NCBI GenBank assembly: GCA_021525805.1 | Contig: GCA_021525805.1_3940.1 | DNA: 64,000 nt | Direction: 5' to 3' (one strand) | Source of the DNA: a phage | Shown: piece after piece, positions 15,874-42,245 of the stretch | Numbering within the stretch: the stretch's first letter is position 1 | How the letters are laid out: each line of letters starts with the position of its first letter | The notes under the pieces: generated by a model | The model's input: only the letters and a program-made list of their open reading frames with translations | Told to the model about the DNA's origin: nothing | The model's database searches: none | Position numbers and translations under genes: made by a program

Positions 15874-16030
15874 CCTAATAAGATTTTAAAGCCAAGCTTC
15901 ATTCGGATGTTGCTTTGGTATCCCTCGTGTATTGTCGTACACACTGATAAAGCACCTAGTAGGTGTCACGGAGAAGAGATAATATCAAGCTCTCCAAAGG
16001 TTCTAGTCACCGGATTAAACAAGACTATGC

Positions 16031-16053
16031 AAAGACCTTTTTAGGTCTTTTTA
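16031..16053 (+). terminator. putative rho-independent terminator
   Basis: AAGACC-TTTTT-AGGTCTT followed by TTTT. Confidence 0.55.
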
Positions 16054-16131
16054 GAGGGCTTCTAAGGTTATTACAGCTTGTTGTGGAACCTTGTTGCTTA
16101 GGTTCTTAGAAGTTCTCTAAAAAGATTTAAT

Positions 16132-16209
16132 GGGAGATTGACGGTAATTGGTAAACCTATCTCGCTTAGAACGAGATGTTTGAGGGTTCGAATCCCTTGT
16201 CTCCTACCA
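16132..16209 (+). tRNA. tRNA with anticodon TAG (Leu-type anticodon, short variable arm)
   Basis: acceptor GGGAGAT/GTCTCCT, anticodon arm TCTCG-CTTAGAA-CGAGA perfect, T-arm GAGGGTTCGAATCCCTT, A73, CCA encoded. Confidence 0.6.
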
Positions 16210-16216
16210 AATTAAT

Positions 16217-16292
16217 GCAGGTGTAGCAAAATGGTTATGCGGCTGACTCTTAATCAGTAAGACGATGGGTTCAATTCCCTCCACCTGTACCA
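16217..16292 (+). tRNA. tRNA-Lys (anticodon CTT)
   Basis: acceptor GCAGGTG/CACCTGT; anticodon arm GCTGA-CTCTTAA-TCAGT; CCA encoded; paralogue of the TTT copy. Confidence 0.7.
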
Positions 16293-16298
16293 GATATT

Positions 16299-16373
16299 GG
16301 GGATGTAGTTTACATGGTTAAAACATAAGTTTTGCAAACTTAAGTACAGGGTTCAATTCCCTGCTTCTCCACC
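16299..16373 (+). tRNA. tRNA-Cys (anticodon GCA)
   Basis: anticodon arm AAGTT-TTGCAAA-AACTT; T-arm CAGGGTTCAATTCCCTG; CCA encoded. Confidence 0.65.
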
Positions 16374-16380
16374 AATTAGT

Positions 16381-16455
16381 GCATCCATAGTTTAAACGGG
16401 AAAATTACAGTCTTCCAAACTGAGGTTGAGGGTTCGATTCCCTCTGGATGCTCCA
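16381..16455 (+). tRNA. tRNA-Gly (anticodon TCC)
   Basis: acceptor GCATCCA/TGGATGC perfect; loop CTTCCAA; T-arm GAGGGTTCGATTCCCTC; CCA encoded. Confidence 0.75.
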
Positions 16456-16461
16456 AACAAT

Positions 16462-16538
16462 GCTGCTTTCGTATAATTGGCTATTACACATCCCTTGTAA
16501 GGATGGAAATGCAGGTTCGAGTCCTGTGAGCAGCACCA
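16462..16538 (+). tRNA. tRNA-Thr (anticodon TGT)
   Basis: anticodon arm CATCC-CTTGTAA-GGATG perfect; T-arm CAGGTTCGAGTCCTG; CCA encoded. Confidence 0.75.
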
Positions 16539-16540
16539 AT

Positions 16541-16632
16541 TCAGAGGTCAAGTGAAAGACCGCTGGTGTCAACTGAAGACCGTAACAAATTCCACGGAGT
16601 TGAGTTAGCGGCACAACTTCAGACCTCTTTCA
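16541..16632 (+). ncRNA. candidate structured RNA S6 (outer helix AGAGGTC/GACCTCT enclosing about 75 nt with box-like GAAGACCGT)
   Basis: nested complementary segments CTGAAG/CTTCAG, GTTG/CAAC; no tRNA T-loop; no ORF. Confidence 0.35.
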
Positions 16633-16633
16633 T

Positions 16634-16708
16634 ACTCGCTTAGTTTATATGGTAAAACATCACCCTTACAAGATGAAGAAAAAGGTTCAAGTCCTTTAGT
16701 GAGTACCA
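16634..16708 (+). tRNA. tRNA-Val (anticodon TAC)
   Basis: acceptor ACTCGCT/AGTGAGT, loop CTTACAA, T-arm AAAGGTTCAAGTCCTTT perfect, CCA encoded. Confidence 0.65.
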
Positions 16709-16709
16709 T

Positions 16710-16787
16710 GTTCCAGTATCCCAATTGGCAGAGGATGCAAGCTCAAACCTTGTATTAGTGACGGTTCGAATCCGTCTTGGAACACCA
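16710..16787 (+). tRNA. tRNA with anticodon CAA (Leu-type anticodon, short variable arm)
   Basis: acceptor GTTCCAG/TTGGAAC; D-loop AATTGGCAGA; anticodon arm GCAAG-CTCAAAC-CTTGT; CCA encoded. Confidence 0.6.
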
Positions 16788-16805
16788 ATTTAAAGAGGCT
16801 ATTTA

Positions 16806-17363
16806 ATGAGATATTTGAAGTATGCTTCATGGATTTTCTTAGCTTTACTAGACCCAATTGCAGCAACCCTAGCAGTTATCTTAGCACCTTTCGTAGTTCC
16901 ATTCTACAGTGAGAAGAAAGGGCATCTACCTTTTGGATTCAGATGGATGGAGACCTATGACAACCCGATTGATGGTGATAAAGGCCACGTTGAGAGATGG
17001 GCTAAGATTAGAAAGATTGGTAAGCTCGGTGTTTATATGCAGAGAGTTGGATGGCTCTGGAGAAACAAAGCTTATAACTTCTCTTACCATGTATTAGGAA
17101 GAGATGTAAAAGATGTTACTAAGTGGAAAGGCAATATCAACGTAAGTTCTGACCCTGAAGATAATCAGACTGGTTATCTCCTAATGTGGAACAGCAATGC
17201 TTGGGGATTATTCGCTTTTATCCCATCAATTAAAGTCTTTGGTAAACAATTTTACTGGAGAATTTATGTTGGGTGGAAACTAAAAAGTGTTGTCCCAGAA
17301 GAAAGAGCATTCTCAAGGGAAAGAGTTATGTTGGCATTCTTTATTCATCCACTGAGAAAGTAA
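16806..17363 (+). CDS. hypothetical membrane protein embedded in tRNA array
   Basis: 185-aa ORF with AAGAGG RBS; N-terminal TM segment WIFLALLDPIAATLAVILAPFVV. Confidence 0.6.
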   Translation: MRYLKYASWIFLALLDPIAATLAVILAPFVVPFYSEKKGHLPFGFRWMETYDNPIDGDKGHVERWAKIRKIGKLGVYMQRVGWLWRNKAYNFSYHVLGRDVKDVTKWKGNINVSSDPEDNQTGYLLMWNSNAWGLFAFIPSIKVFGKQFYWRIYVGWKLKSVVPEERAFSRERVMLAFFIHPLRK

Positions 17364-17371
17364 AGATTTAA

Positions 17372-17447
17372 AGGGGATTAGTTTACAAGGTTAAAACCTC
17401 GGTCTTTGAAATCGAAGAAGTTGGTTCAATTCCAACATCCCCCGCCA
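17372..17447 (+). tRNA. tRNA-Gln (anticodon TTG)
   Basis: anticodon arm TCGGT-CTTTGAA-ATCGA; T-arm GTTGGTTCAATTCCAAC perfect; CCA encoded. Confidence 0.65.
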
Positions 17448-17449
17448 AT

Positions 17450-17528
17450 GCTCCATTACTCCAATTGGCAGAGAGGCCAGACTTAAAATCTGTGTTATGT
17501 ATCGGTTCGAATCCGATATGGAGTACCA
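17450..17528 (+). tRNA. tRNA with anticodon TAA (Leu-type anticodon)
   Basis: acceptor GCTCCAT/ATGGAGT; D-loop AATTGGCAGA; loop CTTAAAA; T-arm ATCGGTTCGAATCCGAT perfect; CCA encoded. Confidence 0.6.
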
Positions 17529-17533
17529 AATTT

Positions 17534-17609
17534 AGCGGTATAGCATAACTGGCAATGCAACAGTCTCTGAAGCTGTCCTATTAAGGTTCAAATCCTTATG
17601 CCGCTGCCA
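17534..17609 (+). tRNA. tRNA-Gln (anticodon CTG)
   Basis: anticodon arm ACAGT-CTCTGAA-GCTGT; T-arm TAAGGTTCAAATCCTTA perfect; CCA encoded. Confidence 0.65.
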
Positions 17610-17640
17610 CTTCTAAGGGTTCTTACGAGAGTCCTTAAAT

Positions 17641-17716
17641 GTGGCCTTATCATAAATGGTAATGACCCATGCTGTGAACATGGTCTATACGGGTTCAAAT
17701 CCCGTAGGTCACCCCA
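17641..17716 (+). tRNA. tRNA-His (anticodon GTG)
   Basis: anticodon arm CCATG-CTGTGAA-CATGG perfect; acceptor GTGGCCT/AGGTCAC; CCA encoded. Confidence 0.75.
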
Positions 17717-17722
17717 ATTTAT

Positions 17723-17798
17723 AGTCCAAGTAGCTTATATGGTTAAAGCGCGTGTCTGAAAAACATGAGAAGAGGGTTCAAATCCCACTGGACTACCA
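17723..17798 (+). tRNA. tRNA-Phe (anticodon GAA)
   Basis: anticodon arm CGTGT-CTGAAAA-ACATG; T-loop TTCAAAT; CCA encoded. Confidence 0.7.
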
Positions 17799-17814
17799 AT
17801 TTCAAAGGTGCTTA

Positions 17815-18549
17815 ATGAAAGAGATGACAGAACAAGGTAAGGAGATTTTTAATCTCTTAAAAACCGGTAAAGGGTTTTCTAACCCACTTATTACTGGTGC
17901 AGCAGTTCTCGGTGGAACCGTAGCTGCCTCAACATCACTTATAAGCTCTATTAGCTCTGTAACAGACCCTACAATGAAGGAGAAGCTTGTTGCTGCTGGA
18001 CTTACAACAGTCCTTCTAAACAGCTTTACAACAAGCCTGACAAGCACTACAGCAACTACTAAGACCCTAACAGACTATGGTCAAAAGTCTATTGATGAGT
18101 TTTCATCACGTATGCAGGTAGCAAAGGGATACTCCAATGTTATGGGTGCAGCAGGAGAACAAGTTGGTTGTACACCATTCAGTGGTATTATGGGTGTTGC
18201 TACAGAATATGGTCAAAAAGCTATTGACATGATGAACAGTACACTAGATAGTGTTAATGGTGTGTTAAGTGACTTACAAGATGCTATTGATAAGGGTCTT
18301 GATACTGTTTCTGATTTGGCTAACCAAGCTGTTAGCAAGATTAATGAAGGTATCTCAAAGATTACAGCTTATGCAGATGAAGTTGTGCAGATGATTGAAG
18401 AAGAAGCTGCCCTTATTGCAGAGTACCTTAAAACGAATATCAATGGGTTCTTAGCAGGTATCTTACCAGACTGGTTTGATGATGCTTGTAAAACTGGTGT
18501 AATCGACACTATTGCAACACCAGAAATGAAGAACGCATTGCAGAAATAA
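17815..18549 (+). CDS. hypothetical Ser/Thr/Ala-rich protein (start refined from track ORF 17752..18549)
   Basis: track ORF starts at GTG inside tRNA-Phe; ATG at 17815 lies just past the tRNA; stop abuts tRNA-Ser. Confidence 0.55.
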   Translation: MKEMTEQGKEIFNLLKTGKGFSNPLITGAAVLGGTVAASTSLISSISSVTDPTMKEKLVAAGLTTVLLNSFTTSLTSTTATTKTLTDYGQKSIDEFSSRMQVAKGYSNVMGAAGEQVGCTPFSGIMGVATEYGQKAIDMMNSTLDSVNGVLSDLQDAIDKGLDTVSDLANQAVSKINEGISKITAYADEVVQMIEEEAALIAEYLKTNINGFLAGILPDWFDDACKTGVIDTIATPEMKNALQK

Positions 18550-18550
18550 T

Positions 18551-18643
18551 GGAAGATTAACCCTAAAAGGTAAGGGAGCAGTTTGCTAAACTGCCAGTAG
18601 CTGAGAAATCGGTGTACCAGTTCAAGTCTGGTATCTTCCTCCA
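18551..18643 (+). tRNA. tRNA-Ser (anticodon GCT), long variable arm
   Basis: 93 nt; acceptor GGAAGAT/ATCTTCC perfect; anticodon arm GCAGT-TTGCTAA-ACTGC perfect; T-arm ACCAGTTCAAGTCTGGT; CCA encoded. Confidence 0.75.
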
Positions 18644-18647
18644 ATTT

Positions 18648-18723
18648 GAATCCGTGACAGAAATGGCTATGTGCCTGTCTGCAAAACAGGTTTATAAGTG
18701 TTCAAGTCCCTTCGGATTCTCCA
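18648..18723 (+). tRNA. tRNA with anticodon GCA (second Cys-type copy)
   Basis: acceptor GAATCCG/CGGATTC perfect; anticodon arm CCTGT-CTGCAAA-ACAGG perfect; CCA encoded. Confidence 0.6.
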
Positions 18724-30424: not shown

Positions 30425-38422
<7,998 letters not shown>

Positions 38423-38424
38423 TA

Positions 38425-39591
38425 ATGGCAGTAGGTGAAATTCAAATTAGTGCCTTGCCTCAAGCAGCCTTACCAATTGACCTTAGTGATATCTTCCATC
38501 TTAAGCAGGGTATTGAGGATAAGAGATGTACTCTTGAGCAACTACTTGCTCCACACTCAAGCCTAAGAAATAACCCTCATGGTGTTACTAAGACACAAAT
38601 TGGTTTAGATAACGTTATTAATGCTCTCCAGTTAGTTGCTGAAAATAACTTATCAGATATTGTTAATGTAGCTGAGGCAAGAGCAAATCTACAGATTATG
38701 TCTTCAGAAGAGGTTAATAATCTTATCCAACAACATATTAATGATAAGAGTAACCCACACAATACAACTAAGGCGCAGGTTGGTTTAAGTAATGTCCAGA
38801 ACTGGACAACATCTAACCTTTATAATGAAGATGCAGATAAGTATGCTACAGCAAGAGCAGTAAATAACTTGTACAAGGCTGTTCAGGCTTCTTATCCAGT
38901 AGGTACTATCCATCTCTCTATGAATCCTGCAAACCCCTCTACATATTTAATTTGTGGAGGTACTTGGGAGTTAGTTTCAAAAGGAAGAGCACTTGTAGGT
39001 TATGATAGTGCTTCTAGGCCAGTTGGTTCAACGTTTGGTTCGCAGACTACTGCACTGACAGTTAACAACATTCCTGCACATACTCACTCAGTATACGTCA
39101 CTGGTGGTGGTCACACACATGGTGCAACAATGTCTATTAGTTCCTTTGATTATGGTACTAAGACAACATCTAGCTTTGACTATGGAACTAAAACCACTAA
39201 CACGACTGGTGCTCACACCCACTCAGTGAGTGGCTCAACGAACACAACGGGTGCACATACACATGGTTATATTACTGGTTATCAATCAACAGGTGCATCT
39301 GGAGATTGGGACAGGGATGGTCACAGAAATACCGTACAAACGGATAGTGCTGGGAATCACTCACACTCAGTAAGTGGTACTGCTGCATCAAATGGTGACC
39401 ATGCTCACACTTTAAATATTGGTTCACACACCCATGTAATTAATATTGGTTCACACACTCACAGTGGCAGTGTGAGTATTTCAACAACAGAGCACTCACA
39501 CTCTGGTACAACTGGTTCTACAGGTTCTGGACAAGCATTCAGTATTGAACAACCGTCCTTTGTCCTGTATGTATGGCAGAGAACAGCTTAA
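38425..39591 (+). CDS. tail fibre protein with His-rich (HxH) C-terminal tip domain
   Basis: 388 aa; C-terminal motifs HTHSVYVTGGGHTHG, AHTHSVSG, NHSHSVSG, IGSHTHVINIGSHTHSG; shares two identical DNA blocks with the next fibre gene. Confidence 0.7.
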   Translation: MAVGEIQISALPQAALPIDLSDIFHLKQGIEDKRCTLEQLLAPHSSLRNNPHGVTKTQIGLDNVINALQLVAENNLSDIVNVAEARANLQIMSSEEVNNLIQQHINDKSNPHNTTKAQVGLSNVQNWTTSNLYNEDADKYATARAVNNLYKAVQASYPVGTIHLSMNPANPSTYLICGGTWELVSKGRALVGYDSASRPVGSTFGSQTTALTVNNIPAHTHSVYVTGGGHTHGATMSISSFDYGTKTTSSFDYGTKTTNTTGAHTHSVSGSTNTTGAHTHGYITGYQSTGASGDWDRDGHRNTVQTDSAGNHSHSVSGTAASNGDHAHTLNIGSHTHVINIGSHTHSGSVSISTTEHSHSGTTGSTGSGQAFSIEQPSFVLYVWQRTA

Positions 39592-39599
39592 TTTCTTTA

Positions 39600-39622
39600 C
39601 AGGGGCTTTATAGCCCCTTTTA
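39600..39622 (+). terminator. putative rho-independent terminator
   Basis: GGGGCT-TTAT-AGCCCC followed by TTTT. Confidence 0.6.
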
Positions 39623-39637
39623 AGAGGAAAATTTATA

Positions 39638-42166
39638 ATGGCAGATTACAAGTTGAGTGAATTAAACTCAATCGATACAGTTCGTTCAGACGACCTTCTT
39701 CATATCAGGGTTAAAAAGAGACCTGAAATGCTTGGTGATGAAGACCGCCGAATGACCTATCAAGATTTCTTAGCATCTTTTAAACTAGAAAGGTTTGTTC
39801 AGATTGCTGGTAGCACTATGACGGGTGACTTAGGAATTGTTAAGTTACTTTATGGTGGCAAGGTAGTCTTTGACCCTACAGGCTCTTCTGAGATTACTAT
39901 GGGGGATGTTTTAAAGACTTTTAAAATTAATGCAAATGGTCTTAAACTAACTATTGCAGATGCTTCAAGGTCTGCAACTGTTTATCATACTCTTAATAAG
40001 CCAAGTCCTAATGAGCTTGGAATGAGAACCAATGAAGAGAACGATGCAAGATATGCAAGGCTTGCTGTAACAAACACATTCTCTAGAAATCAGCACATTC
40101 AAAGTGATGGTAACGCACTTCGCCTTAGAAACCAGATTGCAAATAATGCACAATACATTGAGGGTGTAAACCTAGATGGCTCAGCTAGATGGTGGGTTGG
40201 TATTGGTAGCAATGGCGATGATGCAGTAAGCTTGTATAACAACAAATACAACTCAGCAGTGACTGTTGCAAGCAATATCTCTGTTAATAAGTCTTTAGCA
40301 ATTACTGGTCAAGTTCAGCCTTCTGACTTCTCTAACTTAGATGCTAGATACTTTACTCAGACAGCAGCTAATCAGAGATTTGCGCAGCTAGTTGGTAATA
40401 ACACCTTCAGTGGTTTAAACACATTCAGTAATAATGTCAATGTGAACTCTGATGGTGCTGCTATCATTCTAAAAAATAAAACGGTCAATGAGACTCTGTT
40501 CATCCTAGCAAAGGACAGTGAAAACAATAATTTGTGGTATATTGGTAAAGGTGATGTAACCTCTAATATCACAATTTATGATTACAAGGGGGACACTTCC
40601 ATTAAATTAAACGCGTCTGGTGTAACATTTAGTAAGACTGTCAAAATCACTGGTCAAGTACAACCTTCTGACTGGACTAACATTGATTCTAGATACATTC
40701 CAGCAGCTACTTTGAATAATCTTCCTAAACTTAATGTGTCTAATACTTTCACAAATACACAGACTATTGTTGCTAACAATGAAGGGTTGATTGTTAAGAA
40801 TTTGACACAAAATCAACCTTTGTATATCCGTGGCGTGGATACTGCGAATGTGTCTAGGTGGTGGTTAGGTGTAGGTGGCCCAGATTCTACTGATGTATCC
40901 TTAAACAACAGTTTCTCTGGGACTCAAATTACTCTTTCAAGGTCATTAATTACGGCTAACAAGAACTTTGCTATTACTGGTCAAGTTCAACCTTCTGATT
41001 GGTCTAACATCGATGAGAGATACTATAACAAATCATCCGCTGATAACCGGTATCTGAGAGTAAGGAGCACTGGATTCAATACTGGTGGTGCTGGTAAATG
41101 GGCTAAGATTGCTACTGTCAGTATGCCGCAAGCCACATCAACAGCGGTGATTGAACTTTTTGGGGGGGCTGGATTTAACTTTGGCTCAGTTGACCAAGCC
41201 TGTAAAACAGAAATTGTTCTTAGGACAGGGAATGGTGACCCAAAAGGCTTAAATGTTGTTGCATGGAAAAACTCACCGAATACTGTTGTAAGTCAAATTG
41301 GGTATGTTAATACCTCTGGTGATAACTATGACATCTATTGCGCAGTTGGCAACTATCAAAACGCTACGACAGCTAGGGTTCAGTCATCATCTAATGCAAC
41401 AGTACAACTGTTTGAGTTTCCAGAGACATCTGACAACGCCCCATCTGATTATGTTGCTGGCACAATTGCTTACTATTACACTAGTCTCTTGAAGCCAAGC
41501 CCTTCAGATATTGGTGCATACACTAAAGCAGAAACTGACCAGAAGATTGCACAGGCAGTAAGTGACTCTACAGACCTTAATAAAATCTACCCAGTAGGTA
41601 TTGTAACGTGGTTTAACAGTAATGTTAACCCTAATACAGCACTGCCTGGTCTAACTTGGACGTATCTGAACAACGGTGTTGGTAGAACTATCAGAATTGC
41701 AGCAGCAAATGGTTCAGATGTTGCTACAACTGGTGGTTCAGATTCTGTGACGTTAGCTGTTGGGAACTTGCCTTCACACACTCACAGTTTTTCTGCTACC
41801 ACTTCATCTTTTGACTACGGAACAAAAAACACTAACACGACTGGTGCTCACACCCACTCAGTGAGTGGCTCAACGAACACAACGGGTGCACATACACATG
41901 GTTATACTACTGGTGCGCAACCAAGTGGTACAAGGGGTGATTGGGACAGGGATGGTCACAGAAATACCGTACAAACGGATAGTGCTGGGAATCACTCACA
42001 CTCAGTAAGTGGTACTGCTGCATCAAATGGTGACCATGCTCACAGTGTTGGTATTGGTGCTCACAGCCATACAGTGAGTGGTAACACTGGAAGTACAGGT
42101 TCTGGTTCAGCATTTAGTGTAACTAACCAGTTCTATAAGTTAATGGCTTGGGTGAGAACTGCTTAA
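39638..42166 (+). CDS. long tail fibre protein with internal tandem repeats and His-rich C-terminal tip domain
   Basis: 842 aa; three copies of ITGQVQPSD(F/W)(S/T)N(L/I)D.RY motif about 110 aa apart; C-terminal HxH-rich block identical to that of fibre 38425..39591. Confidence 0.75.
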   Translation: MADYKLSELNSIDTVRSDDLLHIRVKKRPEMLGDEDRRMTYQDFLASFKLERFVQIAGSTMTGDLGIVKLLYGGKVVFDPTGSSEITMGDVLKTFKINANGLKLTIADASRSATVYHTLNKPSPNELGMRTNEENDARYARLAVTNTFSRNQHIQSDGNALRLRNQIANNAQYIEGVNLDGSARWWVGIGSNGDDAVSLYNNKYNSAVTVASNISVNKSLAITGQVQPSDFSNLDARYFTQTAANQRFAQLVGNNTFSGLNTFSNNVNVNSDGAAIILKNKTVNETLFILAKDSENNNLWYIGKGDVTSNITIYDYKGDTSIKLNASGVTFSKTVKITGQVQPSDWTNIDSRYIPAATLNNLPKLNVSNTFTNTQTIVANNEGLIVKNLTQNQPLYIRGVDTANVSRWWLGVGGPDSTDVSLNNSFSGTQITLSRSLITANKNFAITGQVQPSDWSNIDERYYNKSSADNRYLRVRSTGFNTGGAGKWAKIATVSMPQATSTAVIELFGGAGFNFGSVDQACKTEIVLRTGNGDPKGLNVVAWKNSPNTVVSQIGYVNTSGDNYDIYCAVGNYQNATTARVQSSSNATVQLFEFPETSDNAPSDYVAGTIAYYYTSLLKPSPSDIGAYTKAETDQKIAQAVSDSTDLNKIYPVGIVTWFNSNVNPNTALPGLTWTYLNNGVGRTIRIAAANGSDVATTGGSDSVTLAVGNLPSHTHSFSATTSSFDYGTKNTNTTGAHTHSVSGSTNTTGAHTHGYTTGAQPSGTRGDWDRDGHRNTVQTDSAGNHSHSVSGTAASNGDHAHSVGIGAHSHTVSGNTGSTGSGSAFSVTNQFYKLMAWVRTA

Positions 42167-42245
42167 TCCCTTATTGACTGATTGTTAAGATGGTGTTAAT
42201 ATTCTTTATGGGTATTCTCACCATCTTGGCTGATGAGGTGATTAA

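What the first reader, a model, noticed from the sequence alone, without database searches (positions are those of the whole stretch)
39133..42044. Two tail-fibre genes share identical DNA blocks encoding an HxH-rich tip domain
The blocks 39196-39270 and 39304-39409 in fibre 1 are identical to 41831-41905 and 41939-42044 in fibre 2. They encode TNTTGAHTHSVSGSTNTTGAHTHGY and GDWDRDGHRNTVQTDSAGNHSHSVSGTAASNGDHAH. Both proteins carry many HxH motifs. Repeated HxH motifs coordinate metal ions in the T4 long-fibre tip, so both fibres probably end in a similar metal-binding needle. DNA-level identity implies recent gene conversion. Fibre 1 also has a local duplication, SSFDYGTKTT twice.
Basis: partly seen in the sequence, partly recalled or inferred. 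Interest (0 to 1): 0.6.

Follow-up and report, generated by a model that had tools for sequence, protein, structure and literature searches.

The report
Gene conversion between two phage fibre tips
The short and long tail-fibre genes of this Felix O1-like phage both end in a T4-type histidine-rich receptor-binding needle, and two stretches of that tip were recently copied from one gene to the other, an ordinary but unusually clean example of how phages reshuffle their host-recognition parts.

Summary
39195-39271 equals 41830-41906 (77 nt) and 39304-39409 equals 41939-42044 (106 nt), inside a 261-nt repeat that is 91% identical.

The genes are the short fibre (388 aa) and long fibre (842 aa) of a Felixounavirus. 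Both C-termini are homologous to the T4 gp37 receptor-binding tip (PDB 2XGF; E 4e-26 and 1e-18), which has a collar, an HxH needle and a head. A 2025 cryo-EM paper on the relative Bas63 already describes this architecture for both fibres, so the structural reading is correct but known.

The gene-conversion reading is also supported:
- Synonymous codons are homogenised (71/76, against 57-63% in unconverted relatives).
- A runs test gives 0/20000.
- A 95%-identical sibling contig has its own identity tracts with different ends.
- At six sites both copies agree within each genome but differ between the two genomes.
- Block 2 was copied from the short fibre into the long one, changing three head residues.
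- A 32-nt island at the head apex stays specific to each gene.

The SSFDYGTKTT repeat is an old duplication (21/30 nt identical), also present in T4 gp37. Metal binding is inferred, not shown. This is a new example of a known kind, of modest interest.

The parts
38120..38422 (+). 100-aa ORF just upstream of the fibres. By gene order it corresponds to the long-fibre platform (Bas63 gp25).
   Evidence: ORF; phrog_4141, E 3e-62, function unknown. It follows ORFs of 489 and 285 aa, which are the lengths the Bas63 paper gives for wedge 2 and wedge 1. The assignment rests on synteny and is an inference.
38425..39591 (+). Fibre 1: short tail fibre (STF), 388 aa, the equivalent of Felix O1 gp76 and Bas63 gp26.
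   Evidence: phrog_2097 tail fibre, E 5e-139; Pfam Gp10_C, E 5e-17, plus Phage_fiber; 2XGF, E 4e-26, residues 146-355.
38884..39078 (+). STF collar domain (gp10/gp12/gp37 collar type), running up to the first HxH motif.
   Evidence: Pfam PF21939 hit on residues 154-274. Alignments to the gp10 C-terminal domain (2FKK) and to gp37 (2XGF) start at residues 143-146. This is the best-predicted part of the AF2 model, with pLDDT 77-88.
39139..39198 (+). Tandem decapeptide SSFDYGTKTT x2 in the outgoing needle strand; an old duplication.
   Evidence: The two DNA copies are 21/30 identical. The same pair of motifs is present in every STF examined and in T4 gp37.
39195..39271 (+). Identity block 1, STF copy (77 nt). 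It encodes ..TNTTGAHTHSVSGSTNTTGAHTHGY, i.e. the two HxH motifs nearest the head on the outgoing strand.
39272..39303 (+). Gene-specific island, STF version (ITGYQSTGAS-G). It aligns with the first half of the T4 gp37 head domain.
   Evidence: It differs at 12/32 nt from the LTF island and at 0 nt from the STF island of phages mio and A132.
39304..39409 (+). Identity block 2, STF copy (106 nt), the probable donor. It encodes DWDRDGHRNTVQTDSAGNHSHSVSGTAASNGDHAH, i.e. the second half of the head plus the first two HxH motifs of the returning strand.
   Evidence: It is 2-4 nt from orthologous STF copies and 8-13 nt from orthologous LTF copies.
39410..39591 (+). STF returning needle strand (three more HxH motifs) and C-terminus ...LYVWQRTA; diverged from the LTF.
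   Evidence: S and L are 21/40 aa identical over the aligned columns of this stretch.
39638..42166 (+). Fibre 2: long tail fibre (LTF), 842 aa, the equivalent of Felix O1 gp77 and Bas63 gp27.
   Evidence: phrog_4277, E 0; 3x gp37_trimer, E 6e-70, plus Phage_fiber; 2XGF, E 1e-18.
40285..41044 (+). Three shaft repeats of the LTF (88-nt cores at 40285, 40630 and 40957; motif ITGQVQPSD[FW]xNxDxRY).
   Evidence: family D2, 68-74% identity; three PF20744 gp37_trimer stretches.
41830..41906 (+). Identity block 1, LTF copy.
41907..41938 (+). Gene-specific island, LTF version (TTGAQPSGTR-G).
   Evidence: 0 nt differences from the LTF island of mio and HK3.
41939..42044 (+). Identity block 2, LTF copy, the probable recipient. 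It carries STF-type codons R, H and D where orthologous LTFs have S, N and G.
42167..42245 (+). Near-invariant intergenic spacer downstream of the hypervariable tip, with a strong hairpin and a promoter-like site. It is a possible conserved 3' anchor for tip exchange.
   Evidence: dG -31.3 kcal/mol, z -5.5; TTGACT-17-TAATAT at 42174-42202; almost unchanged across 38 loci.

Best explanation
The region holds the two fibre genes of a Felixounavirus (Felix O1-like myovirus). The closest sequenced genomes are about 94% identical. One gene encodes a short fibre (388 aa) and the other a long fibre (842 aa). Each ends in a T4 gp37-type receptor-binding tip. The tip has a gp10/gp12-type collar, then a needle built from GxHxH repeats, then a small head where the chain turns back. 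In T4 each HxH motif contributes to one metal site in the trimer; here there are 9 motifs in the short fibre and 6 in the long one. The two genes are old paralogues: the collars are only 27/70 aa identical. Their distal needle plus head, however, is 73/80 aa identical, because this cassette is repeatedly exchanged between them by homologous recombination. In this phage's recent ancestry two patches were homogenised by non-reciprocal exchange (gene conversion) between the two loci, which lie 2.6 kb apart. The exchange most likely happened among replicating genome copies. Block 2 (106 nt) was copied from the short fibre into the long fibre, giving the long-fibre head three short-fibre residues (S->R, N->H, G->D). 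The direction for block 1 (77 nt) is unresolved. The tracts stop at a 32-nt island with 12 differences, and at divergent flanks. Either such heterology blocks heteroduplex extension, or selection keeps the apex loop different in the two fibres. Shown here: homology to gp37, the exact tracts, homogenised synonymous sites, genome-specific variants shared by both copies, and independent tracts in relatives. Inferred: trimeric needle geometry, metal binding, the recombination machinery, and any change in receptor specificity.
For: Identity of the genes: megablast places the window in Felixounavirus, and synteny is identical to Felix O1, mio, HK3 and others. Tip homology: 2XGF at E 4e-26 and 1e-18; Pfam Gp10_C, Phage_fiber and gp37_trimer. 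PMC12609058 reports a collar, HxH needle and head in both fibres of Bas63, and PMC3185647 noted gp37 homology of Felix O1 gp76 and gp77 in 2010. Conversion: (a) Exact tracts of 77 and 106 nt. (b) 71/76 same-amino-acid codons are nucleotide-identical, against 46/73 (HK3), 43/76 (JH2) and 39-45 of 68-74 in unconverted Felix-type genomes. (c) The longest run of concordant polymorphic sites is 31 of 95, reached in 0/20000 permutations; HK3 and JH2 are not significant. (d) Block 2 of the window differs by 2-4 nt from orthologous STFs but by 8-13 nt from orthologous LTFs, and the LTF carries the STF-type codons. (e) Sibling contig L047, 95% identical over the locus, has its own tracts of 102 and 88 nt with different ends. 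(f) At six sites (39186, 39204, 39234, 39249, 39255, 39397) both copies agree within each genome but differ between genomes, while all 21 gene-specific sites fall in the island or the 3' flank. (g) No phage record carries the window's LTF tip; the best is mio at 96.1%. (h) Independent tracts occur in BPS17L1 (189 nt) and L028 (113 nt), spanning the whole head. A head swap between the window LTF and the A132 LTF is bounded by the flanking HxH motifs. This matches exchange at conserved motifs in T-even adhesins (Tetart 1996/1998, as cited in PMC3157838).
Against: Across the genus, within-genome S/L similarity is not significantly higher than between-genome similarity (permutation p = 0.12 and 0.055). 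Conversion is therefore sporadic rather than pervasive. The direction of block 1 cannot be resolved: it is 4-5 nt from both kinds of orthologue. Part of the STF-like state of block 2 (H and D) is already present in the L047 LTF, so the history involves more than one event. Some exchange is clearly between genomes: the segment upstream of block 1 in the JH2 LTF resembles an STF of another clade. Read-level support for the assembly could not be checked. The AF2 monomer model was poor (pLDDT 68.7, pTM 0.33) and Foldseek gave no significant match, so the fold assignment rests on sequence homology and the literature. No metal data exist for this protein.
Confidence: 0.85

Rival explanations
1. The two blocks were not exchanged between the phage's own two genes. 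Instead, each gene acquired them separately by recombination with other co-infecting phages or prophages that carried the same cassette.
For: Fibre genes here are mosaics. The window LTF shaft is closest to A132 (87%) and only 58% identical to mio, whereas its tip is closest to mio at 96%. The segment upstream of block 1 in the JH2 LTF looks like an STF of a different clade. Some Felixounavirus LTFs carry a T4-like head.
Against: Window-specific synonymous variants are present in both copies and in no other record among 50,697 phage records or IMG/VR loci. The sibling L047 shows the same pattern with its own variants. Two separate imports of identical DNA are less parsimonious than one internal copy. 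No match was found in 5,426 E. coli genomes.
Confidence: 0.07
2. Assembly artefact: short reads from two similar repeats were collapsed or cross-polished, which made the copies falsely identical.
For: The blocks are shorter than typical read lengths, and repeats of about 90% identity are known to be cross-corrected by some polishers. Reads for the window are not available.
Against: The 32-nt island and both flanks keep clean gene-specific sequence identical to the orthologues, which a collapse would not preserve. Comparable tracts with different ends occur in independently assembled genomes: L047, mio, BPS17L1 and L028.
Confidence: 0.04
3. The identity is kept by selection on the nucleotide sequence itself (codon choice, or an RNA or DNA element inside the blocks), without any exchange.
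For: The peptide in block 1 is almost invariant across the genus, so constraint at the protein level is strong.
Against: In relatives that encode the same peptides, only 57-63% of same-amino-acid codons are identical between the two genes. Orthologous copies of the blocks differ at 2-20 sites. Rfam finds nothing there.
Confidence: 0.02

Closest known systems
T4 gp37 long-tail-fibre receptor-binding tip (PDB 2XGF; Bartual et al. 2010, as cited in PMC12609058)
   Same: Collar followed by GxHxH needle repeats, a head where the chain reverses, returning HxH repeats, and a ...V/I-R-x-A C-terminus. Sequence homology is significant over all of these parts, including the paired xxFDYGTKxT motifs.
   Different: The window has nine (STF) and six (LTF) HxH motifs, against seven in T4. 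The head sequence is of a different type (GDWDRDG...). No gp38-type chaperone gene is recognisable next to the fibres. The tip sits on single-protein fibres attached to a simple Mu-like baseplate (PMC11821841) rather than on a four-protein jointed fibre. Iron binding is untested here.
Felixounavirus short and long fibres: Bas63 gp26/gp27 (cryo-EM, PMC12609058), Felix O1 gp76/gp77 (PMC3185647), Sf14 gp52/gp53 (PMC11821841)
   Same: Same gene order and sizes, with 80-96% DNA identity to genus members. Both fibres carry a gp37-like tip, and the LTF has gp34/gp37-like shaft repeats.
   Different: The papers describe architecture. In the passages I read, none mentions DNA-level homogenisation between the two fibre genes. 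The window STF has nine HxH motifs, against the seven reported for the Bas63 STF.
Recombination at conserved motifs in T-even adhesin genes (Tetart et al. 1996, 1998; reviewed in PMC3157838)
   Same: Short conserved motifs flank hypervariable receptor-binding segments, and exchanges occur in or next to them. Here the head cassette swapped between the window LTF and the A132 LTF is bounded by the two flanking HxH motifs. The conversion tracts consist of the HxH-repeat DNA.
   Different: The T-even cases are exchanges between phages, or duplications within one gene. Here the partners are two different fibre genes of the same genome, which gives concerted evolution of the two fibre tiers.
Mosaic side-tail-fibre genes of lambdoid, P2-like and other coliphages
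   Same: The same tip module family (Collar plus Phage_fiber repeats) is found in lambdoid side tail fibres, phage 9g and T-even gp37.
   Different: Those matches are only 44-62% identical at protein level. No DNA-level match to the window's block was found in E. coli genomes.

Membership tests
T4 gp37-type receptor-binding tip (collar-needle-head) | Significant sequence homology spanning collar, outgoing needle, head and returning needle of gp37(785-1026) | tested here: met
   phmmer vs PDB. STF residues 146-355 match 2XGF chain positions 18-223 with E 4e-26. LTF residues 712-822 match positions 105-219 with E 1e-18.
T4 gp37-type receptor-binding tip (collar-needle-head) | gp10/gp12-type collar domain immediately before the needle | tested here: met
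   STF: Pfam PF21939 Gp10_C at 63.5 bits (cut-off 27), plus 2FKK at E 2e-5. LTF: the same family at only 20.9 bits, below the cut-off, although the YPVG...LPSHTH collar pattern is present. The feature is therefore firmly met for the STF and weaker for the LTF.
T4 gp37-type receptor-binding tip (collar-needle-head) | Repeated GxHxH motifs on both sides of a non-repetitive head segment | tested here: met
   STF has 4 before and 5 after the head; LTF has 3 and 3. Pfam Phage_fiber (PF03335) hits both.
T4 gp37-type receptor-binding tip (collar-needle-head) | Trimeric six-stranded needle with chain reversal at the head | tested here: inconclusive
   Only a monomer could be modelled: pLDDT 68.7, pTM 0.33, head pLDDT 46-54. 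Foldseek against PDB gave no hit with E<=0.001; the best weak hits were gp10 collars. The geometry is reported for Bas63 fibres from cryo-EM density plus AlphaFold.
T4 gp37-type receptor-binding tip (collar-needle-head) | Metal ions (Fe in T4) coordinated by the HxH histidines | not testable with these tools
   Inferred from conservation of the motifs only.
T4 gp37-type receptor-binding tip (collar-needle-head) | No cleaved C-terminal intramolecular chaperone; the C-terminus is part of the tip | tested here: met
   Neither fibre has a Peptidase_S74 or other chaperone-domain hit. The C-terminal ...RTA is conserved in all 38 genomes.
T4 gp37-type receptor-binding tip (collar-needle-head) | Dedicated assembly chaperone gene (gp38-like) adjacent to the fibre gene | tested here: not met
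   The two downstream ORFs (64 and 123 aa) match only PHROGs of unknown function, and relatives annotate the second as a holin. The Sf14 paper also reports no chaperone homologue. This bears on how the tip is assembled, not on its fold.
Felixounavirus STF/LTF gene pair | Synteny wedge 2 (489 aa) - wedge 1 (285 aa) - 100-aa ORF - STF (~390 aa) - LTF (~780-850 aa) - 64-aa ORF - holin-like ORF - td/frd on the opposite strand | tested here: met
   One search compared with the annotated loci.
Ectopic gene conversion between paralogues | Discrete identity tracts, including synonymous sites, bounded by diverged sequence | tested here: met
Ectopic gene conversion between paralogues | Paralogues share genome-specific variants that the orthologues lack (concerted evolution) | tested here: met
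   Six such sites between the window and L047, all but one inside the window's exact-identity blocks (39186 lies just 5' of block 1, inside L047's longer tract). All 21 gene-specific sites lie outside the blocks.
Ectopic gene conversion between paralogues | Non-reciprocal transfer with an identifiable donor | tested here: inconclusive
   Block 2: the STF is the donor (2-4 vs 8-13 differences). Block 1: ambiguous.

The most novel reading that the evidence does not exclude
In Felixounaviruses the distal needle-plus-head cassette is homogenised between the short and long fibres again and again. The HxH-repeat DNA would serve as built-in homology arms, so the two fibre tiers tend to carry the same receptor-binding head. 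The head is fully identical in BPS17L1 and L028. In the window's clade, selection would protect an 11-residue apex loop that keeps the two fibres functionally distinct. If so, that island marks the residues that set the difference in receptor use between the two tiers. This is a concrete, testable handle on the still unresolved receptor recognition of Felix O1-like phages.
Probability: 0.3. Interest if true: 0.45.

Novelty: new member of a known kind. Interest (0 to 1): 0.3.

Why it matters
Felix O1-like phages are used for Salmonella diagnostics and biocontrol, yet how their two fibre sets recognise LPS is still unclear (PMC8594841, PMC11821841). The tips of the two fibres exchange sequence, and in some phages the heads are identical. 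This argues that both tiers often address the same or closely related receptor. It also means that host-range changes in one fibre can spread to the other in a single recombination event. The exact tract ends and the protected 32-nt island give natural design rules for engineering chimeric tips: swap at the HxH motifs and vary the apex loop. Beyond that, this is a tidy textbook case of concerted evolution in a virus, not a new mechanism.

Tried and rejected
1. AlphaFold2 monomer of the STF tip with a 58-sequence alignment: pLDDT 68.7, pTM 0.33. A Foldseek search of PDB gave no significant match. An intertwined trimer cannot be judged from a monomer, so the model was not used for mapping.
2. 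Genus-wide test that S and L of the same genome are more alike than S and L of different genomes: p = 0.12 (GDWD-type heads) and 0.055 (Felix-type heads). I therefore dropped the idea of pervasive concerted evolution in favour of sporadic, lineage-specific events.
3. Recent tandem duplication of SSFDYGTKTT: rejected, because the DNA copies are 21/30 identical and TRF finds nothing.
4. Intramolecular chaperone at the C-terminus: no such domain.
5. Prophage origin of the block: no match in 5,426 complete E. coli genomes.
6. Looking up the window's own STF protein in the contig index: not on record.
7. Papers by Bartual 2010 and Hyman & van Raaij 2018 are not held. gp37 domain numbering is therefore derived from the 242-residue chain length, and partly from memory.
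8. RNA-family scan: only tRNAs.
9. Covariation analysis of the downstream hairpin: the region is too conserved to test.


Full report
**1. Observation**

A direct comparison confirms the two exact matches. 39196-39270 equals 41831-41905 and 39304-39409 equals 41939-42044. Block 1 extends one base on each side, to 77 nt (39195-39271 / 41830-41906).

The repeat finder reports the whole feature as a 261-nt direct repeat, 39175-39435 / 41810-42070. It is 91% identical at a spacing of 2635 nt.

Both copies are in frame in two adjacent plus-strand ORFs: 38425-39591 (388 aa) and 39638-42166 (842 aa).

The 32 nt between the blocks differ at 12 positions and encode ITGYQSTGAS in one gene and TTGAQPSGTR in the other. 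Outside the 261 nt the two genes show no DNA similarity.

**2. What the genes are**

The window is a Felixounavirus (Felix O1-like myovirus).
- The fibre region is 80-90% identical to many members of the genus.
- The first 20 kb is about 94% identical to Escherichia phages finno, pinkbiff and others.
- The window carries the typical block of 22 tRNA genes.

Gene order is the same as in Felix O1, mio, HK3, JH2, Mushroom and other relatives. It runs: 489-aa Baseplate_J wedge, 285-aa wedge, 100-aa ORF, short fibre, long fibre, 64-aa ORF, holin-like ORF, then thymidylate synthase and dihydrofolate reductase on the other strand.

The ORFs match PHROG tail-fibre families with E 5e-139 and E 0. Pfam finds Gp10_C and Phage_fiber in the short fibre. 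In the long fibre it finds three gp37_trimer units plus Phage_fiber.

**3. The tip**

Searching all PDB sequences, the short fibre hits the T4 gp37 receptor-binding tip (2XGF) with E 4e-26 over residues 146-355. That span covers collar, outgoing needle, head and returning needle. The only other hit is the gp10 collar domain. The long fibre hits only 2XGF, with E 1e-18.

Both fibres have HxH motifs on both sides of a 31-residue non-repetitive segment. The short fibre has 4 before and 5 after; the long fibre has 3 and 3.

This architecture is already published.
- The Bas63 cryo-EM study states that the Felixounavirus short fibre (gp26, 430 A) and long fibre (gp27, 630 A) both end in a gp37-like tip.
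- That tip has a collar, a six-stranded HxH needle and a head where the chain doubles back. In T4 the di-histidines coordinate Fe (PMC12609058).
- The gp37 homology of Felix O1 gp76 and gp77 was noted in 2010 (PMC3185647).

Its stated refutation does not apply. There is no intramolecular-chaperone domain, and the C-terminal ...RTA is conserved in all relatives.

Metal binding remains an inference from homology.

My own AF2 monomer model was too weak to add anything (pLDDT 68.7, pTM 0.33). Foldseek gave no significant hit.

**4. Where the blocks lie in the tip**

These positions come from the alignment to 2XGF. Numbering is inferred from the 242-residue chain being residues 785-1026.
- Block 1 encodes the two outgoing HxH motifs nearest the head.
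- The island aligns with the first half of the head, roughly gp37 residues 933-943. This includes the position of Trp936, which is Tyr in the short fibre and Ala in the long one.
- Block 2 encodes the second half of the head and the first two returning HxH motifs.

The homogenised DNA thus corresponds to the distal needle and half of the head. Consistent with that, S and L are 73/80 aa identical there, against 27/70 in the collar and proximal needle and 21/40 in the C-terminal part.

**5. Is it gene conversion?**

I fetched 14 annotated Felixounavirus loci, 29 IMG/VR loci and one ENA metagenome contig (L047). Seven lines of evidence bear on the question.

(a) Within-genome S/L DNA similarity in the tip varies widely. 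It ranges from undetectable (JN01, ZX4221, D1-2) through about 75% (HK3, JH2, Sl26) to 91% in the window. Long exact runs occur only in some genomes: 106 nt in the window, 189 in BPS17L1, 66 in A132 and 65 in mio.

(b) Codons encoding the same amino acid in both genes are nucleotide-identical in 71/76 cases in the window. The figure is 46/73 and 43/76 in HK3 and JH2, and 57-63% in unconverted Felix-type genomes. Protein-level constraint therefore cannot explain the identity.

(c) A Sawyer-type test was run on 95 polymorphic sites from ten sequences. It gives a run of 31 concordant sites for the window pair (0/20000 permutations). The p-value is 0.0006 for mio, and HK3 and JH2 are not significant.

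(d) Segment by segment:
- The island and the 3' flank of each window gene are identical to the same gene in mio (0 differences).
- They are 12-13 differences from the other gene.
- The window's block 2 is 2-4 differences from orthologous short-fibre copies and 8-13 from orthologous long-fibre copies.
- The window's long fibre carries the short-fibre codons for R, H and D where mio, HK3 and JH2 long fibres have S, N and G.

So the short fibre was the donor for block 2. Block 1 is equidistant from both (4-5 differences), and its direction is unresolved.

(e) L047 is 95% identical to the window across the locus. It has its own exact S/L tracts of 102 and 88 nt at short-fibre gene positions 745-846 and 892-979. 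The window's tracts are at 771-847 and 880-985.
- At six sites (39186, 39204, 39234, 39249, 39255, 39397) both copies agree within each genome but differ between the two genomes.
- All 21 sites that instead separate the two genes lie in the island (39280-39303) or the 3' flank (39412-39443).

This is the classical signature of concerted evolution confined to the tracts. It dates at least one event per block to after the split of two lineages that are 95% identical.

(f) No record among 50,697 phage genomes has the window's long-fibre tip; the best is mio at 96.1%.

(g) The Felix O1 annotation includes a T7-type exonuclease (gene 6), a primase/helicase and a ligase. These are plausible parts of a phage recombination system. 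This is inference from annotation only.

**6. Limits**

Across the genus, within-genome similarity is not significantly above between-genome similarity (p = 0.12 and 0.055). Conversion is episodic.

Some exchange is between genomes.
- The window long fibre has an A132-like shaft (87%) but a mio-like tip (96%).
- The JH2 long fibre has a short-fibre-like segment from another clade.

Part of the short-fibre-like state of block 2 is shared with L047, so the history has several layers. Assembly error cannot be excluded without reads. It is unlikely, given the clean gene-specific island and the independent examples.

**7. Wider pattern**

Head types are highly mosaic. At least six types occur in short fibres and nine in long fibres.

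Only two types occur in both fibres. Whenever a long fibre carries one of them, the short fibre of the same genome carries the same type.
- The GDWDRDG type is found in both fibres of the window, mio, HK3 and JH2.
- The GGRYGGDSIGGK type is found in both fibres of Felix O1, Mushroom, BPS17L1, Sl26 and four more genomes.

In BPS17L1 and L028 the exact tract spans the whole head, so the two fibres there present identical heads.

The head swap between the window and A132 long fibres drops to 33-50% identity only in 41897-41986. That stretch lies exactly between the flanking HxH motifs. This echoes the exchange at conserved motifs described for T-even adhesins (Tetart 1996/1998, via PMC3157838).

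**8. The SSFDYGTKTT repeat**

It is present twice (39139-39198), but the two DNA copies are only 21/30 identical. The pair occurs in every short fibre examined and in T4 gp37 as STDLGTKTT-SSFDYGTKGT. It is an ancient feature of the needle, not a recent local duplication.

**9. Verdict**

The tip architecture is already known.

In the papers I could search, I did not find the recent, directional conversion between the short- and long-fibre tips described. It is nonetheless an instance of well-known tail-fibre mosaicism. Novelty: new member of a known kind. Interest: 0.3.

Noticed in passing
L016 and L019 (IMG/VR UViG_2706795709_000001 and UViG_2706796285_000001), long-fibre head: Two Felixounavirus long fibres carry a head segment ([40 protein letters not shown]) that matches the T4 gp37 head at 36 of 40 residues. 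This indicates cassette exchange between Tequatrovirus and Felixounavirus fibres, and it explains the Tequatrovirus hits.
   Followed up: partly
L002 = MG065664.1 'Campylobacter phage A132' (UNVERIFIED): The closest DNA match to the fibre region (90.5%) is a record labelled as a Campylobacter jejuni phage, yet it is an Ounavirinae genome syntenic with E. coli and Salmonella Felixounaviruses. The host label is probably wrong, or the record is a contaminant.
   Followed up: no
window 42167-42245: The 79-nt spacer after the long-fibre stop folds into a strong hairpin (dG -31.3 kcal/mol, z -5.5) and holds a promoter-like TTGACT-17-TAATAT. It is almost invariant in 38 loci even where the adjacent tip is hypervariable. 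It could be a promoter or stabiliser for the downstream 64-aa and holin-like genes, and a conserved anchor for tip exchange.
   Followed up: partly
L008 (Salmonella phage BPS17L1) and L028 (IMG/VR UViG_2706796270_000001, 87,603 bp): These genomes have independent exact identity tracts between short and long fibre, of 189 nt and 113 nt. The tracts cover the entire head, so both fibres present an identical receptor-binding head.
   Followed up: yes
L005 (Escherichia phage JH2), long-fibre codons just upstream of block 1: The JH2 long fibre carries a short-fibre-type segment (2 differences from the window STF, against 8 for JH2's own STF). This points to exchange with the short fibre of a different phage lineage.
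   Followed up: partly
window 13890-18723: A cluster of 22 tRNA genes, the same number as reported for Felix O1, including tRNA-His(GTG). Rfam adds one further weak tRNA-like hit at 15465-15543 (31.7 bits) that ARAGORN does not call.
   Followed up: no
window 40285-41044, and long-fibre lengths: The long-fibre shaft has three diverged ~110-aa gp37_trimer repeats. Long-fibre length is polymorphic in the genus (about 780-850 aa). The window's shaft is closest to A132 while its tip is closest to mio, so the gene is a mosaic of at least three sources.
   Followed up: partly
L029 (IMG/VR UViG_2974574300_000001, 84,419 bp): The long-fibre reading frame that ends in ...RTA is only 311 aa in this genome, which suggests a frameshift or a split gene.
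   Followed up: no
L032, L033, L035, L038 short fibres: A divergent short-fibre class (375-382 aa) has seven HxH motifs, three FDYG-type motifs and a much longer head segment. The count of seven matches that reported for the Bas63 short fibre.
   Followed up: no
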